Source: Callorhinchus milii (taxonomy: Eukaryota). Taken from it: a stretch of 64,000 bases of DNA. A program made the position numbers. Position 1 is the first letter of the stretch; every line of letters begins with the position of its first letter. Location: positions 37,820,001-37,884,000 of the forward strand of contig NW_024704742.1 in the NCBI RefSeq assembly GCF_018977255.1, given 5' to 3'. Below are positions 1 through 15,000 of this stretch, in pieces.

Positions 1-3000
1 TCCCTGGCTTGGGAGAGTTCATGCTTCTGACTGACTCTCTTGCCCCATTGGAACCTGAGCATGGTCACAAGATGTCAGGTAATTTTAGGGTCAGCCTTAT
101 CACAAGATTGGTCTGGATTGACAACAATCACTCTCGCTCTCAAGGCTCACTCACAAAGAATGAGCACTAATGGAGATGGAGGAAGGTAACTGGTGCCTAT
201 AGAACTGTAACCCAGCAAAGGATCACCTGAAAACAACAAAACAACAACAACAAGATAGCATTTATAGAGCGCCATTCAGCGCCTTGCAGGGACCGGCCCT
301 TGCAGGGACCGGCCCTTGCAGGGACCGGCCCTTGCAGGGACCGGCCCTTGCAGGGACCGGCCCTTGCAAATCATTTGCTCCTCGCAGAATGATTGATGCA
401 GAAGTACGGGCCTTTGTACTGAAAAATACAAATTAAACTTTACAACAATAGTACTTGTGAGGGTTGGGTTAAACTCATTTTAAAATGTCAGCATCAATTT
501 ATACCTCACTTTTAGAAATCAGAATCTAGATCCCTTTTTCAATCACAAACATTGTGTGCACTGCTCCTGAATGAACAATACCTATTGCTTATATACTGTT
601 ATGCAAAGCAATATTCATTGCCGACTTAAACCAGGAATAGATGTGACAGTTCTACTTTCATCAGCAAACTGCTTAGATTATATTTATATGCACAACAAAA
701 TTAATCTGCATCTGTGCAGTCAATATAAAAAAAATTCAACCCCATTACAATCCCAACACCTTTTTCAATTCTGCAACACTAACAGTAACATTACAAGATA
801 CTACACTGTATACATTGGAGATAATTTTTTATGTTCAGCTAATGCATTACTGAGAAGACATCAGCAAGGTCTTCAGTCACACAAGGCTGAATATTCTCTA
901 TCCCAAGCGTACAACTGCTCATGCCACAGATATTAGCAGGGCAGCAAATAAATGGGAGTTCAGTAAGTTGTACATGTTTTTCTTACTTTTTAACAAGTAT
1001 CAGTTCATCATCGCATATCCTTTCTTGAACCACCTCCTCAGCTTGGCCCACTAAAGAGGGATCAAAACTCTCATCTCCTTCCAAGTTTGCAAGAGTTGAA
1101 CAGATAGTTGCTATAAACAAAAACAGGTAAAAATCATCAGAATAGGTTTCTCAGTCCAAGACACCCTTTTCTGATTTACGGACTTTTAACACTTCAACAA
1201 AATTACATTTGTATAGCGCCTTTCATGTCGGGAGGACGTCAGAATCACTAGGAAAATTCCAGCTGATTCCGAATGCCAACCTTTCAAAATTGAATGACAT
1301 TAATATTGGACATTAAACTCGATAGCTTGTCACTCCAAGGGTAAAGAGCTGAGCAATAAGTTATCCGGAGTAGCGAGTTTGATAAAGGTCCTCCCAGCTG
1401 CTCCGTGGCTTTTGGCCCTATCCTGTCACACGATAAGATGTAAGACAGCGTAGCAGGCCTCTGCAACGCATCTGAGCATAGGCACCCAACCTCCGCTACC
1501 AATCACAGCATCGGGCTGGAGGCCTTTGTAATGCAAGATGCCATATTACAGAACGAGTTATCAGATCAATTTTCGACTAAGAAGATAGCGAATAAGCTAT
1601 TTTCTGCTCGCTGGATTCAAACAATCTGAGTCAGTCATAGTGGCTATCACTAGCCATTATGAATGTCAGCACAGACAGAGGCTACTCAGTGCACCATTGA
1701 TCCGCGCTAGGAGTTGGGCCCACAGAATAAAATTAATGTTTTTGGTTTTGGGCCTCGTCCAACCAGGTCGGAATTCCGGATAACTGGAGTCCAATAAGGC
1801 AGGGGATCACTAGTTTGAAAGTATGTATAATTCAAAACAGTAACCTAGTAAAAAAAATTGCTGCACTTACCTCCACTGGCCTTAACAATTCGTCTGAGGT
1901 CTTTCTTCAGACAACGGCGTAATGCCCTGCAGGGACCTGCGCTGCAGGGACCTGCGCTGCAGGGACCTGCCCTACATCCTCCCATCACAGCATCAAGCTA
2001 ATTCTAAATATATCCAATATATCAAGCAGGAAGTACATCATCCAACCCCAGGAACTCTAAATTTAGAGTAGAGTTCCAACAGATATCTACGATTATCATA
2101 GATATACCTTTGGTCACTGGAAAAAAGTTCCCACTTTATTTCCTAAAACTAGTTTGTCCTAAAAATATAATAAATTTGAACTTGTAAAAAATATATAGGG
2201 ATGGAAATGTTTTCATACCATAAATAATCGCCCAAATAATTGTTGCATTTGATATAGTGGTTAGAACACTGAAACATCTCAAAGCACTTCACATATAATT
2301 GCTGTCAAATGTAATGACTGTATATTTGTAAATAGTTGCAACATCCTTCTGACACAGAGACAAGATTGCTACCAACTGAGCTCAGTTGACAAATAATAAA
2401 TAGAGGCCAGAAATGTTTTTAAGTTTTGGTACAGAATTCTTTGAAAGTAAAGTAACTATTGTAATTACTTTACAGGAATAAAGCTACTCCTGAGAGTTTA
2501 AATAATTATAATATTCCTTGCATTTGATATCATGCCTTTCATGTCGGGAGGTTGTCACAAAGCGTTTCACAGGATTTATTTTAAAGTATAGTGACTGAAC
2601 TGAGATCTCGAGAGCAGCTGGCAGTCAAATGACAAAGAATGGAAAACAGGTATTTAAAAACCAAAGTCAGATGATGCTCTAACGGCCCACTGGGTAAAAG
2701 TACCAACTGCCGTAGCATTAAACCTTGCATTTGATATAGTGCATTTAATATAGAATCTCAGGAATGTCACAAGTTTGATCTCAATAAGAACTACTCCGAG
2801 ATGCAATACCATGCGAAGGCTGCTATGTAAATGCAGGTTGTTGTTGTTGCTTTGGGTTATTATGACTGGTCTCAGAGTCCCTGGCTTGGGAGAGTTCATG
2901 CTTCTGACTGACTCTCTTGCCCCATTGGAACCTGAGCATGGTCACAAGATGTCAGGTAATTTTAGGGTCAGCCTTATCACAAGATTGGTCTGGATTGACA

Positions 3001-12000: not shown

Positions 12001-15000
12001 GCTGACAAATAATAAATATTATTATTAATAATAATAATGCCTGCCCTGCCGGGGCCTGCCCTGCCGGGACCTGCCCTGTTTCAGTGGCCTGCAGAGTTCG
12101 GCGATGTTACGGAGGTGAGGGAAGGCAGAGCGGGTCATGGCTTGAATGTGGGGAAGAAGAGAGTTGAGGGTCGAACAAGACACCCAGGTTCCTGACTGGC
12201 TGGTGAGTTGTAGTGTGCAACCATGGAGGTTGATGCTGCCAGAGCCTGAGGTGCTGAGGTGCTGGCGCGAACCAATCAGGAGGGCCTCAGTCTTGTTCAC
12301 ATTCAACTGTAGGAAATTTACCCTCATCCAGGACTTGATGTTCGACAGACAGTCTGTCAGGACAGCAGTGGTCCTGGAGTTGAGGGTGGAGGCAGAAAGA
12401 TAGAGTTGGGTGTCATCCGCATACACGTGGAAGTTGACCCCATGTCTGCGGATGATGTCACCAAGGGGGAGCATGTTGATATTTAAGAGGAGAGGGCCAA
12501 GGACAGAGCCCTGGGGGACGCCAGACGTGACAGTGCGGGGGCTGGAGGAGAAACCGTTAGAGGCAACAAAGACATGTTCAGACGAAGAAGGTCCTTCAGC
12601 CCATTTGATCTCACCCTTTCAGAATACTCACCTGACTGTTTTCCATTCACTTTACAGTATGATTGTGAAGTGCTTTGATACGTCTCAATGACGTAATAAG
12701 GCTCTATATCAAATGGAAGGATTATTATTATTTAGGTACAGACAACGATAATCCTTGCATTTGATACAGCACCTGATCATGTCTTCTCGATGCCTGAAAG
12801 CGCTTCACAGAACGTGCTGCAAAGCCAATCGAACCGATATTTCGCGGGCGAAATGAAACCCGGCAGCCCTCGGCGCGCAGCGAGCGGCGGCTCTCGAAGC
12901 GACCGAATTATCGTCGCCGACGTCCTCGAAGGGACCACTCGACGAGCACCTGGGCAGCCCAAATCCACCCCCGGAACGAGAAAAAAAAAAGACCCGCGCT
13001 CGCTCGTCGACCGAGAAAGGCGTTCGGTGCGAGACGAGCGCAGCCTGTGGGGTTGTCCTTTTTTTTTCGGTGGGTGGGTGGGTGGGGGTGACTCAGAAAT
13101 TGCAAATTTCTCCCCCCCCCCACCACCCCACAAAAAAAAAGGGACTGTGATGACCTGGCCTGAGCCGGCTACCTGCCACTTTGGCTGCAGATGGGAAGCA
13201 GGTGGAGAGGGCAGTGTTGGGGGGTTGGGCTGCAGTTGGAGCTGTGAGTGGTTGGGTTTGGGGTTGGGTTTGGGGGTGGAGGCGGCGGCTCTACACACAC
13301 AGCGCAGCAGCAGCAGCAGAAGGCGCAGCCACCACAGCCCGCAATGGCAGCGGAGTCTCGCAGCGGAGAGCCGGGCGTGTTGCTGGAGGAGCTCCTGGCC
13401 ATGGCCGCGGCCGGCGGCGTGTGGGCAGCCCTGTCCCTGGGAGTCCTGGTGGCTCTGGCCACTTGGGGCTGGTTCAAGGCGAGCAGGAAGGGCAGCGGCC
13501 CGAGCAGCCCCGACCTTCCCAGCCAGAGCGGCGCTGCGGCCACGGTCACCGCAGGTCAGGGATGGGATGGGAGGGGGGGGGTTTCGGGGGGTGTCAGCGG
13601 GTTTTACTGGTGAAACCTAATTTAAAAAAAATCAATTGGGTTTGTCTGGTTTTTGTTTGGCTGACTTTTCTCAGGGGTTGGGTGGGTGGTGTGGGGGGTG
13701 GCGGTCGGTACCGATAATCCCTGATAATAATAATAATATTGTTATCAATAAATTGAATGTTAATAATAATTCGGTCACTTGGATTTCTTCGGCCGCTGTT
13801 TGTGGGACGCTGCTGCGCGAGCCACTGGCCGCCGTGTTTCGCCCCCTCAAAGTACGCGGTCAGCTCACGCGACGGTGCGTTCTGTGAGGCGCTTCGAGAC
13901 GGCTTAATGATGTGATGTCAAATGCAAGAATTATTATTATTATTATTATTAATATCATTATTGGGGCTGTGCTCCCACTTGTCCTGAAGTAACCTTTCCC
14001 TCCACACCGCCAATGTTTCAATTGAATTCAAGAATCAATTAGTTCTTTTATTTGTAGAACACATTTTTTATGCGACTGTGCTTGTTCAGCTCCTGTCACG
14101 TCGGGAGGACTTTTATTTGCACCACAAATGTCTAATTTTATCTGGTTGTTTCCTACAGCCTTCTTTTAAGTTTTTTTTGTGACCAGGTATGTATATTGTA
14201 CAATTTGGAGTTATTCTCAAGGTTTGGTGTTTAAAAACTAATCTGAACGAAGTGATTCTTCAATCAGATTGCTCAAGGGTGCCATTGAATGAATTGGCAA
14301 TGTGTATCCTGCTTTGTTACAATTTAGCCTACAATTTCTATACAGAAAGTTCAGTGATTTTACTGATACGAGAATATATCTCCCTCTCATCAAATGTTCT
14401 TCAGAATATTTGGGTTGATCTGGAGCTCTTTGAATTGCCCCCCAATTGAGCCCAAAGTTTACTCTTAATTTCTGCATTTTGGGCACTGTTAATAGTGTGA
14501 TCTAGATATGTAAGAGTACAAATTGAGCAAAGCCTGAATCCCGATTGAACTTTGAGATTACCTTGCATACACAGCATGCACTTTTCCAGTTATCAGTAAC
14601 CTTTTGGTATTTTGGGCTGTTTTTCTGCGATGGAAAGTTGGAAACCTTTACATTGACGTGAAAAGGTGCCACATCAAATGTTGTTATTATTGGCAGTTGC
14701 ACATTGTTTTATTTAGAATTGTAAGTGCTGCCCTAATGGCTTCACCTTGGGTTTAGATGAACTGACTATTGTACAGTATTTTGCTCCCAAGTTTCCAGAA
14801 GGTCATGTCCTGCACTGGAAGGGATTACATTATCTGCACATGTTGAACTGATCTATGTTTAGTTAATGATTGAGGATTTGTACATCTGATTCACAACTGC
14901 AGTGGAGTGGGTGGGGGGCAGTCAAACCAAAGTAAGCCCTAAGGTAGATCTTGCTGCCAAGAAAATAACAGCTGTGTCTCCATTTCCACTGAAGAGAATT

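What the first reader, a model, noticed from the sequence alone, without database searches (positions are those of the whole stretch)
1..12018. Tandemly amplified 'snoRNA cassette': an ectopic TCP1 exon-intron fragment carrying SNORA20
Seen: at least 4 near-identical units, each with a 1.56-kb unspliced TCP1 piece that keeps two intact introns (GT-AG) and an H/ACA snoRNA with H box, ACA box and both hairpins. Known: SNORA20 is hosted in a TCP1 intron and is predicted to guide 18S rRNA pseudouridylation; intronic snoRNAs need only be spliced out; human TCP1 lies beside ACAT2/MRPL18, not STBD1/CCDC158. Inference: the piece is about the minimum needed to release the snoRNA, so the array could be a newborn non-coding polycistronic snoRNA host that raises SNORA20 dosage. 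It could equally be a neutral captured fragment.
Basis: partly seen in the sequence, partly recalled or inferred. Interest (0 to 1): 0.85.

Follow-up and report, generated by a model that had tools for sequence, protein, structure and literature searches.

The report
Tandem TCP1 fragment copies carrying SNORA20
An elephant-shark chromosome carries at least four near-identical tandem copies of a short unspliced piece of the chaperonin gene TCP1, each still holding an intact-looking SNORA20-type small nucleolar RNA, most likely a young duplication by-product and not a proven new snoRNA gene.

Summary
Window 1-12018 is a tandem array of four units of 2.9-3.8 kb. Each holds a 1,556-bp TCP1 piece on the minus strand with two GT-AG introns. 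Each also holds one H/ACA RNA that matches Rfam SNORA20 over the full model, in 4 of 4 units. That match scores 39.7 bits, below the gathering score of 60.

I take the contig for Callorhinchus milii, not human. RefSeq already models the units as at least four identical 115-aa 'T-complex protein 1 subunit alpha-like' proteins.

The array is one branch of a larger C. milii family of partial TCP1 copies on at least four large contigs of 24-139 Mb. Several have breakpoints abutting one GC-rich 15-16-nt minisatellite family, and they carry amino-acid changes in a conserved protein.

My best reading is a young minisatellite-associated segmental and tandem duplication with SNORA20 as an intact passenger. 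The snoRNA would be released if the units are transcribed and spliced. A selected, dosage-raising polycistronic host stays untested: no genome, RNA-seq or small-RNA data were available.

The parts
1..12018 (-). Tandem array of four units (1-2877, 2878-6676, 6677-9633, 9634-12018). The sense strand of the TCP1 pieces is minus. The array may continue left of the window.
   Evidence: Self-BLAST at 99.1-100% identity; unit alignment.
370..1925 (-). TCP1-derived fragment of unit 1, equal to TCP1 residues 310-385 plus two introns. The same piece lies at 4169-5724, 7126-8681 and 9987-11542 (my offsets from the alignment).
1871..1985 (-). First coding exon of the RefSeq-type model (P0205 aa 1-38). The ATG at 1985 lies in non-TCP1 DNA, then comes translated minisatellite B, then TCP1 exon sequence from 1925. 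A donor GTAAGT follows at 1870.
   Evidence: tblastn of P0205, 38 of 38 identical in each of 4 units; sequence.
1111..1870 (-). TCP1 intron, 760 nt, GT..AG. It holds a SINE-head fragment (1195-1240) and an 18-nt inverted-repeat pair (1359-1376 / 1768-1785).
987..1110 (-). Complete TCP1 exon, 124 nt, residues 327/328-368 of C. milii TCP1.
   Evidence: Translation; PDB match; 100% to C. milii TCP1.
419..986 (-). TCP1 intron, 568 nt, GT..AG, hosting the snoRNA. 27 nt of intron precede the snoRNA and 409 nt follow it.
829..959 (-). SNORA20-type H/ACA snoRNA, unit 1.
   Evidence: Rfam RF00401 at 39.7 bits, E 3e-4; fold.
4628..4758 (-). SNORA20-type snoRNA, unit 2, identical sequence.
7585..7715 (-). 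SNORA20-type snoRNA, unit 3, identical sequence.
10446..10576 (-). SNORA20-type snoRNA, unit 4, identical sequence.
346..418 (-). Third model exon. It is TCP1 exon sequence down to 370, then runs into minisatellite A (model peptide ...RGAND/LQGPVPAR).
18..53 (-). Fourth, non-TCP1 model exon (VPMGQESQSEA plus stop) behind an AG acceptor. The implied intron would start with GC, not GT.
   Evidence: tblastn of P0205; sequence read.
286..367 (.). Minisatellite A, 16-nt unit CCTTGCAGGGACCGGC, nearly self-complementary. About 5 copies here, 63.4 at 3159-4167, 10.4 at 6958-7124, about 4 at 9919-9984.
   Evidence: TRF; alignment; spurious hairpin and miRNA-type Rfam hits.
1926..1970 (.). Minisatellite B, 15-nt unit, three copies, related to A. 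It abuts the 5' TCP1 breakpoint.
12040..12092 (.). Third, related minisatellite just right of the array. It cuts into the reverse-transcriptase ORF.
   Evidence: 80-87% identity to 1923-1973.
12028..12618 (-). Truncated retroelement reverse-transcriptase fragment flanking the array.
   Evidence: Pfam RVT_1, E 9.9e-15; translation.
13345..13557 (+). Probable STBD1 first coding exon in a CpG-rich region. It places the array about 1.3 kb upstream of STBD1 and divergent from it.
   Evidence: Sequence; CpG o/e 1.13 and 0.98 in flanking 500-bp windows; CBM_20 exon at 15252-16190. The exon-1 limits are my reading, not a tool result.

Best explanation
The array is a young, DNA-level tandem duplication in the Callorhinchus milii genome. 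Its unit is a truncated derivative of a partial TCP1 duplicate.

Proposed history (inferred):
1. A copy of the 3' part of TCP1, from residue ~310 onward, became joined to non-TCP1 DNA at a GC-rich 15-nt minisatellite.
2. That copy spread, giving several 260-270-aa models.
3. One descendant lost everything beyond residue 385 at a second, related 16-nt minisatellite.
4. That unit, together with about 1.3 kb of SINE-rich filler and minisatellite, was then multiplied head to tail. Unequal exchange or replication slippage is the likely cause, and the central units were kept identical.

The SNORA20 copy came along because it sits in the intron between two retained exons. It looks intact because the copy is young, not demonstrably because it is selected.

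How it would work (inferred): both introns keep consensus splice sites and the H/ACA motifs are intact. Any minus-strand transcript through a unit should therefore be spliced and should release a SNORA20-type snoRNP guiding the usual 18S rRNA pseudouridine. Extra SNORA20 output would be a by-product.

The 115-aa open reading frame is not a working chaperonin subunit.
For: Array and youth:
- U1-U3 are identical outside minisatellite copy number. The edge unit U4 has only 5 differences in about 2.4 kb.

DNA-level origin:
- Both introns are retained with GT..AG.

Species and annotation:
- The exon translation is 100% identical to C. milii TCP1.
- RefSeq protein P0205 (XP_042197182.1 and at least three more accessions, on a 139,202,109-bp contig) maps exon by exon to each of the 4 units.

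Descent from a longer duplicate:
- P0204 and P0206 (270 aa, same contig) share the array's N-terminal junction peptide and both of its substitutions, V311L and A323V, and continue to the TCP1 C-terminus.
- P0005 has the junction and V311L only.

Wider family:
- Partial models lie on contigs of 139.2, 99.1, 81.2 and 24.0 Mb and on a 629-kb scaffold. The full-length model is on a 12.7-kb scaffold.

Minisatellite link:
- Related 15-16-mers abut the TCP1 breakpoints at 1925/1926 and 369/370.
- A third abuts a truncated reverse-transcriptase ORF at 12092.
- Models P0210 and P0216 also start with repeat-like peptides before TCP1.

Relaxed protein constraint:
- The partial copies listed carry 1-5 changes private to a copy or subfamily (for example R313C, S342R and D385A in 89 residues of P0210). 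P0216 carries none.

Not a chaperonin:
- P0205 covers only Cpn60_TCP1 profile positions 275-345 of 490.

snoRNA intact:
-. By my count of the alignment, 11 of 13 pocket nucleotides equal the Rfam consensus.

Filler is ordinary:
- It consists of decayed SINE-head pieces.
Against: - Nothing here shows that the array is neutral. No expression data, no parental DNA and no other paralogue's DNA were available, so there was no rate test of snoRNA against flanking intron.
- The unit keeps exactly what splicing-dependent snoRNA release needs.
- A second short model, P0210 (residues 308-396, on a different contig), spans the same three exons.
- RefSeq's model uses a non-TCP1 last exon through a GC-AG intron. 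An annotation pipeline would be more likely to accept this with transcript support (my inference, not checked).
- The minisatellite-driven mechanism is inferred from junction positions only.
- The family census is biased. It was found with the exon next to the snoRNA intron as query, so 'all copies keep that exon' carries no weight either way.
Confidence: 0.6

Rival explanations
1. One reading: the array is a newborn snoRNA host. One long minus-strand transcript, for instance divergent from the STBD1 CpG-rich promoter about 1 kb to the right, or one transcript per unit, is spliced only to release SNORA20. Selection keeps the array because it raises SNORA20 dosage.
For: - There are four identical intact snoRNAs in introns with consensus splice sites.
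- The sense strand of all units points away from the CpG-rich STBD1 5' region.
- The unit is close to the minimum needed (residues 310-385 only).
- RefSeq models imply predicted splicing of both snoRNA-flanking exons.
- Tandem snoRNA hosts exist in mammals (recalled; SNORD116-type tandem clustering is also mentioned in passages of PMC13197249).
Against: - No expression evidence of any kind could be obtained.
- Longer copies with the same junction exist, so the unit is a derivative and not a designed cassette.
- Minus-strand poly(A) hexamers lie about 150 and 320 nt after each model stop. These argue against an uninterrupted polycistronic transcript.
- Identity among the units is explained by youth or homogenisation alone.
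Confidence: 0.15
2. A mobile element captured and spread the TCP1 pieces. The related minisatellites would be subterminal repeats of a non-autonomous DNA transposon (Pack-type or Helitron-like capture). The array would be tandem element copies.
For: - TCP1 fragments with different 5' limits lie on at least four large contigs (24-139 Mb) plus a 629-kb scaffold.
- The same minisatellite family flanks unrelated truncated sequences: TCP1 exons and a reverse-transcriptase ORF.
- The unit mixes pieces of several origins.
Against: - No transposase, Rep/helicase or other element ORF was found in the unit: 0 Pfam families for the 5 unit-1 ORFs of 70 aa or more.
- No terminal inverted repeats bound the unit. 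One search found only 2 inverted pairs, one a simple (CAA)n-type match and one inside the TCP1 intron.
- Element termini could not be defined without other genomic copies.
- Helitron end motifs were not searched.
Confidence: 0.15
3. The units are real protein-coding genes, as annotated: four copies of a 115-aa TCP1-like mini-protein.
For: - The open frame with ATG, three splice junctions and a stop is identical in 4 of 4 units.
- RefSeq names them 'T-complex protein 1 subunit alpha-like'.
Against: - Only 76 residues are TCP1-derived, covering 71 of 490 profile positions with no equatorial ATP-binding part.
- The N-terminus and the residues after 385 are translated minisatellite.
- Sister copies accumulate amino-acid changes.
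Confidence: 0.04
4. Assembly artefact: one unit was wrongly expanded into several.
For: U1-U3 are identical outside the minisatellite.
Against: - The units differ in minisatellite length (about 5, 63.4, 10.4 and about 4 copies).
- The edge unit has its own 5 differences and a distinct right junction.
- This speaks for separately resolved copies, but it is not independent of the assembly.
Confidence: 0.03

Closest known systems
SNORA20 (ACA20, Rfam RF00401) in its TCP1 host intron
   Same: - H/ACA architecture, full-length alignment to the model, a well-matched 5' hairpin and pocket, and location in an intron flanked by TCP1 exons.
- Human SNORA20 lies in a TCP1 intron (passage in PMC4824147).
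- It is listed with host TCP1 and target 18S rRNA U651 (table passage in PMC3766210).
   Different: - The score is below Rfam's gathering cut-off and the 3' hairpin matches poorly in sequence.
- These are ectopic copies in a gene fragment, not the parental gene.
- Whether it is the same intron as in human was not compared. I looked up no human sequence.
Tandem snoRNA host arrays of mammals (SNORD116/SNORD115 and SNORD113/114 clusters, rat Bsr/RBII-36); recalled, apart from the tandem clustering mentioned in PMC13197249 (passages)
   Same: Head-to-tail units, each with one intron-embedded snoRNA between short exons that need code for nothing.
   Different: - Those are C/D-box, mostly orphan, imprinted and present in dozens of copies, and their exons have no recognisable coding parent.
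- Here there are four or more units of an H/ACA guide with a canonical rRNA target, the exons are still 97-100% TCP1, and transcription is unknown.
snoRNA paralogues made by retroposition (H/ACA retrogenes; PMC1802619, abstract start seen only in the listing)
   Same: Extra genomic copies of an H/ACA snoRNA away from the parental host.
   Different: Retrocopies lack the host's introns and exons. Here exon-intron structure is kept, so the copy is DNA-mediated.
Gene-fragment duplicates or unprocessed pseudogenes in segmental duplications (general knowledge)
   Same: Partial, intron-containing copies at several places, with relaxed protein constraint and breakpoints in repeats.
   Different: - The association of several breakpoints with one quasi-palindromic minisatellite family.
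- The secondary tandem amplification.

Membership tests
SNORA20 (Rfam RF00401) | Covariance-model score at or above the curated gathering score of 60 bits. | tested here: not met
   There is no hit at gathering. The score is 39.7 bits, E 3e-4 in 3 kb and 1.3e-3 in 13 kb, over model positions 1-128 of 128. I therefore call it SNORA20-type, or a probable SNORA20 homologue, on the strength of its host intron and not as a threshold-passing member.
SNORA20 (Rfam RF00401) | H/ACA layout: 5' hairpin with an internal pocket, H box ANANNA, 3' hairpin, and ACA three nt from the 3' end. | tested here: met
   RNAfold MFE structure at -36.9 kcal/mol, z -2.26. AGAGAA sits in the hinge, and ACA is followed by three nt at the end of the Rfam match. 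About 14 nt separate the top of the pocket from the H box (my count).
SNORA20 (Rfam RF00401) | Hosted in an intron of TCP1. | tested here: met
   The flanking exons translate to TCP1 residues 327/328-368 and 369-385. This is a TCP1-derived intron in an ectopic fragment.
SNORA20 (Rfam RF00401) | Guide pocket complementary to the 18S rRNA site (U651 in human numbering). | not tested
Indirectly, 11 of 13 pocket nucleotides equal the Rfam consensus (my count).
SNORA20 (Rfam RF00401) | Stable expressed RNA bound by H/ACA proteins. | not testable with these tools
   No RNA data.
CCT/TCP1 alpha chaperonin subunit (Pfam PF00118) | Full Cpn60_TCP1 domain with the equatorial ATP-binding parts. | tested here: not met
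   P0205 covers profile positions 275-345 of 490, which equals TCP1 residues 310-385 of 559.
Tandem intron-hosted snoRNA array (SNORD116 type) | Repeated units, each with one snoRNA inside an intron bounded by short exons. | tested here: met
   4 of 4 units.
Tandem intron-hosted snoRNA array (SNORD116 type) | The units are transcribed, as one long transcript or separately, and processed to snoRNAs. | not testable with these tools
   No RNA data. Minus-strand poly(A) hexamers inside each unit make a single long transcript less likely.
Processed retrocopy / snoRNA retrogene | No host introns, a poly(A) tail and target-site duplications. | tested here: not met
   Two introns are retained.
Transposon-captured gene fragment (Pack-type or Helitron) | Defined element termini (TIRs or Helitron ends) around the captured piece. 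| tested here: inconclusive
   No bounding inverted repeats were found. Helitron ends were not searched. No second genomic copy was available to define ends.

The most novel reading that the evidence does not exclude
In the elephant shark, a quasi-palindromic GC-rich minisatellite system has repeatedly cut, joined and spread pieces of TCP1. One product has become an H/ACA counterpart of the mammalian SNORD116-type arrays. It would be a tandem, splicing-driven SNORA20 expression array, transcribed away from the STBD1 promoter, that measurably raises SNORA20 supply. This would be a snoRNA host gene caught at birth, with its coding parent still recognisable.
Probability: 0.12. Interest if true: 0.6.

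Novelty: new member of a known kind. Interest (0 to 1): 0.3.

Why it matters
If the units are transcribed, this would be a rare snapshot of how a non-coding snoRNA host could arise from a coding gene fragment, and an H/ACA example of a tandem snoRNA array outside mammals.

Even if neutral, it has three practical consequences:
- At least four RefSeq 'TCP1 alpha-like' proteins of C. milii are almost certainly translated gene debris.
- SNORA20-type copies escape Rfam's gathering threshold in this lineage.
- One minisatellite family marks several rearrangement breakpoints, which may interest people who study genome instability in holocephalans.

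Tried and rejected
- **Rfam at gathering threshold** found only two tRNA-like SINE matches and no snoRNA.
- **The other Rfam matches.** The other 19 matches in 1-3000 and the other 26 in 1-13000 are mostly miRNA-type hits on the self-complementary minisatellite, far below their cut-offs. I reject them as artefacts.
- **Placing the window on a chromosome through STBD1** failed. The window's own protein is listed without source, and the next hit is 79% identical and unnamed.
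- **Looking for transcript-derived proteins with the array-specific end.** I searched with P0205 among proteins of 63-202 aa. Of 197 hits, 120 listed, none covers more than 81% of the query. The best is the named C. milii model P0006 at 95% identity over 65%. Cluster representatives only are searched, so this says nothing either way.
- **The C-terminal exon of model P0003** is not in the window. It belongs with P0198, on a 24-Mb contig.
- **Classifying the reverse-transcriptase fragment.** The PDB gave only weak matches to bacterial group II and retron RTs, E about 1e-3.
- **The idea that the minisatellite is the natural 3' tail of that retroelement** is rejected. The ORF runs straight into the repeat soon after the RT domain. 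That the missing part is substantial is my recollection of LINE ORF2 layout.
- **Retroposition** is rejected because the introns are kept.
- **Literature.** I judged all three searches below from listings only.
  - 'Callorhinchus milii' + snoRNA: 13 papers.
  - 'elephant shark' + TCP1: 3 papers held, 2 listed.
  - snoRNA / host gene / duplication terms: 10 papers.
  - No title or abstract start in these listings describes this array or the TCP1 fragment family.
- **Databases.** No eukaryotic genome, read or RNA database was available.

Full report
**What is there**

The first 12,018 bases of the window are a head-to-tail array. Self-BLAST gives repeat starts at 1, 2878, 6677 and 9634, with identities of 99.1-100%.

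An alignment of the four units shows the following:
- U1, U2 and U3 are identical except for the number of copies of a 16-nt minisatellite, CCTTGCAGGGACCGGC. There are about 5 copies in U1, 63.4 in U2 and 10.4 in U3.
- This explains the unit lengths of 2,877, 3,799 and 2,957 bp.
- U4, the right-hand edge unit, has one repeat fewer than U1, four substitutions and a one-base indel.
- U4 stops at unit position 2402, where an AT-rich microsatellite and unrelated DNA begin.
- None of U4's differences touches an exon or the snoRNA.

The window starts inside the array, so its left end is unknown.

**The TCP1 piece**

On the minus strand each unit holds 1,556 bp of TCP1 (370-1925 in U1):
- a partial exon ending at 1871
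- an intron of 760 nt (1870-1111, GTAAGT...AG)
- a complete 124-nt exon (1110-987)
- an intron of 568 nt (986-419, GTAAGA...AG)
- a partial exon from 418

I searched the model exon by exon and left the joined step out. The middle exon alone (P0001) matches T-complex protein 1 subunit alpha chains in the PDB at residues 326-365 (E 4.4e-15). By my count of the printed alignment, 31 of 40 residues are identical to the best chain. The same exon is 100% identical to Callorhinchus milii TCP1. The top six of the 120 listed hits are all C. milii, and the next best are frogs at 85-90%.

I therefore take the contig for elephant shark, not human, and nothing human was looked up or compared.

- a reverse-transcriptase fragment at 12028-12618(-)
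- a CpG-rich region with a probable STBD1 first exon near 13.3 kb
- a CBM_20 exon at 15252-16190(+)
- nine CCDC158-matching frames on the minus strand between 18.4 and 52 kb, eight of them above Pfam's cut-off

**The snoRNA**

At Rfam's gathering thresholds the window gives only two tRNA-like SINE hits. In E-value mode, 829-959(-) matches RF00401 SNORA20 over the whole model (1-128 of 128). The score is 39.7 bits against a cut-off of 60, and E is 3e-4 for the 3-kb search. The same hit recurs in 4 of 4 units, with E 1.3e-3 for the 13-kb search.

- The 5' hairpin and its pocket are close to the consensus: 11 of 13 pocket nucleotides by my count.
- The 3' hairpin matches poorly in sequence.
- On its own the RNA folds into two hairpins separated by a hinge with AGAGAA and followed by ACA. 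MFE is -36.9 kcal/mol, z is -2.26, and 3 of 200 shuffles fold as well.

The literature I could see says that SNORA20 sits in a TCP1 intron (passage in PMC4824147). It also lists host TCP1 and target 18S rRNA U651 (table passage in PMC3766210).

So the identification rests on three things: a significant but sub-threshold model match, the right architecture, and the right host intron. Complementarity to 18S rRNA was not tested, because no 18S sequence was available from a tool.

**It is already annotated, as protein**

The cluster look-up and the sequences show a RefSeq protein of 115 aa, P0205. It is named 'T-complex protein 1 subunit alpha-like' and carries at least four accessions (XP_042197182.1.187.1.195.1.209.1). 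The tool prints at most four accessions. The protein lies on one contig of 139,202,109 bp.

tblastn maps P0205 to every unit in four pieces, giving 16 of 16 expected segments:
- aa 1-38 at 1985-1872
- aa 39-79 at 1111-989
- aa 80-104 at 418-346
- aa 105-115 at 53-21, followed by a stop

The start codon and the first 19-20 residues are non-TCP1 sequence and translated minisatellite B. After TCP1 residue 385 the frame runs into minisatellite A. It then jumps to a small non-TCP1 exon through an intron that would begin with GC rather than GT (my reading).

Only Cpn60_TCP1 profile positions 275-345 of 490 are covered. This cannot be a chaperonin subunit.

**A family of TCP1 fragments**

The same look-up lists many partial C. 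milii TCP1 models. Their ranges against the full-length model P0218 (559 aa, on a 12.7-kb scaffold) are as follows:

| Model(s) | Length | TCP1 residues | Contig | Notes |
|---|---|---|---|---|
| P0204, P0206 | 270 aa, plus 260-aa isoforms | 310-559 | 139 Mb | |
| P0005 | 265 aa | 310-559 | two contigs | two accessions |
| P0210 | 124 aa | 308-396 | 99 Mb | |
| P0216 | 302 aa | 270-559 | 99 Mb | |
| P0219, P0198 | 337 and 178 aa | from 227/228 | 24 Mb | |
| P0007, P0200 | 378 and 173 aa | | 81 Mb | |
| P0004 | 244 aa | from 328 | 629-kb scaffold | |

P0204 and P0206 share the array's N-terminal junction peptide and both of its substitutions, V311L and A323V. P0005 has the junction and V311L only.

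The simplest order is therefore: first a junction-bearing long copy, then the A323V subfamily on the 139-Mb contig, then truncation at residue 385 and tandem amplification.

Most of the copies carry changes private to a copy or subfamily in a very conserved protein, which I read as relaxed constraint:
- A417V and I441T in P0204
- T374N, L395R and D397E in P0206
- R313C, S342R and D385A in P0210
- I441T, A445S and A468E in P0004

P0216 carries no change in its 290 aligned residues.

One caveat applies. The family was found with the exon beside the snoRNA intron as query, so the fact that nearly all copies include that exon is an ascertainment effect.

**The minisatellite link**

Three related 15-16-nt repeats lie in the window, all with the same core on the minus strand:
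- Repeat A is at 286-367 and its equivalents in the other units.
- Repeat B is at 1926-1970.
- A third repeat is at 12040-12092. One search gives 80-87% identity between it and B.

Each of them abuts a truncated coding sequence:
- TCP1 at residue 385
- TCP1 at residue ~310
- the reverse-transcriptase ORF, which runs straight into the repeat shortly after the RT domain

Models P0210 and P0216 also begin with repeat-like peptides directly before TCP1. That these reflect the same repeat family is my back-translation, not a DNA comparison.

The 16-mer is nearly self-complementary, which is why it draws spurious miRNA-type Rfam hits. Such repeats are plausible break and template-switch sites. That is inference.

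The rest of the unit is decayed pieces of the window's tRNA-derived SINE. It has no Pfam-recognisable ORF and no bounding inverted repeats.

**Reading**

The best-supported account is a young segmental and then tandem duplication in which SNORA20 is a passenger.
- Shown: the array, the intron-bearing TCP1 origin, the intact H/ACA layout, the shared junction and substitutions with the longer copies, and the minisatellites at the breakpoints.
- Inferred: the order of events, the breakage mechanism, and that any minus-strand transcript would be spliced and release the snoRNA.

- In its favour, the units point away from the CpG-rich STBD1 5' region about 1 kb to the right, and they keep all the signals needed.
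- Against one long transcript, each unit also has minus-strand poly(A) hexamers at 2744-2749 and 2575-2580, soon after the model's stop.

**What stayed unchecked**

- the genome-wide BLAST for the parental locus
- RNA-seq junctions
- small-RNA reads
- read depth

Also unchecked:
- what lies left of the window
- the DNA of any other paralogue
- the 18S target pairing
- which human intron corresponds to the snoRNA intron
- the evidence behind the RefSeq models
- Supplementary figure S7 of PMC4824147, which I did not see; it bears only on human expression

**Verdict**

This is a new member of a known kind: an unprocessed gene-fragment duplicate with an embedded snoRNA paralogue, here tandemly amplified. 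Interest is modest unless expression is shown.

Noticed in passing
window 3159-4167 (also 286-367, 6958-7124, 9919-9984): The 16-nt minisatellite CCTTGCAGGGACCGGC varies from about 4 to 63 copies between otherwise identical units. It is nearly self-complementary and produces a swarm of far-sub-threshold miRNA-type Rfam hits on both strands.
   Followed up: partly
window 12028-12618 (-) and 12040-12092: A truncated retroelement reverse-transcriptase ORF (RVT_1, E 9.9e-15) runs directly into a related minisatellite beside the array. The element type was not resolved: PDB matches were weak and the atlas was closed.
   Followed up: partly
window 1359-1376 / 1768-1785: An 18-nt inverted-repeat pair, 83% complementary and 391 nt apart, lies inside the first TCP1 intron of each unit. 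It is possibly a small MITE-like insertion in a relatively CpG-rich stretch.
   Followed up: no
window 30411-31216 (-) and 43711-44018: Two adjacent copies, about 96.6% identical, of a tRNA-derived SINE with Rfam tRNA hits at 30665-30735 and 31076-31130. An inverted copy at about 91% identity lies 13 kb away, inside CCDC158 introns. Head fragments of the same SINE are scattered through the window and the array unit.
   Followed up: partly
window 62646-63561 and 63841-63993: A C-rich 22-nt tandem repeat (43 copies, 77% matches, GC 0.67) lies near the right end, followed by a 153-N run. The Ns were left as they are.
   Followed up: no
window 45499-45647: A G-rich 46-nt tandem repeat (3.2 copies, 99% matches) lies within the CCDC158 region.
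   Followed up: no
window 19623, 20283, 39401, 41911: Single N positions. They were left untouched.
   Followed up: no
outside the window: C. milii protein records P0218 and P0008: The full-length RefSeq TCP1 model sits on a 12.7-kb unplaced scaffold. It differs at four residues (R230K, D264N, I450V, R453K) from the cDNA-derived K4FU40 protein. Most partial copies share I450V and R453K with the cDNA form. This hints at two full-length alleles or genes, or at assembly trouble at the true locus.
   Followed up: partly
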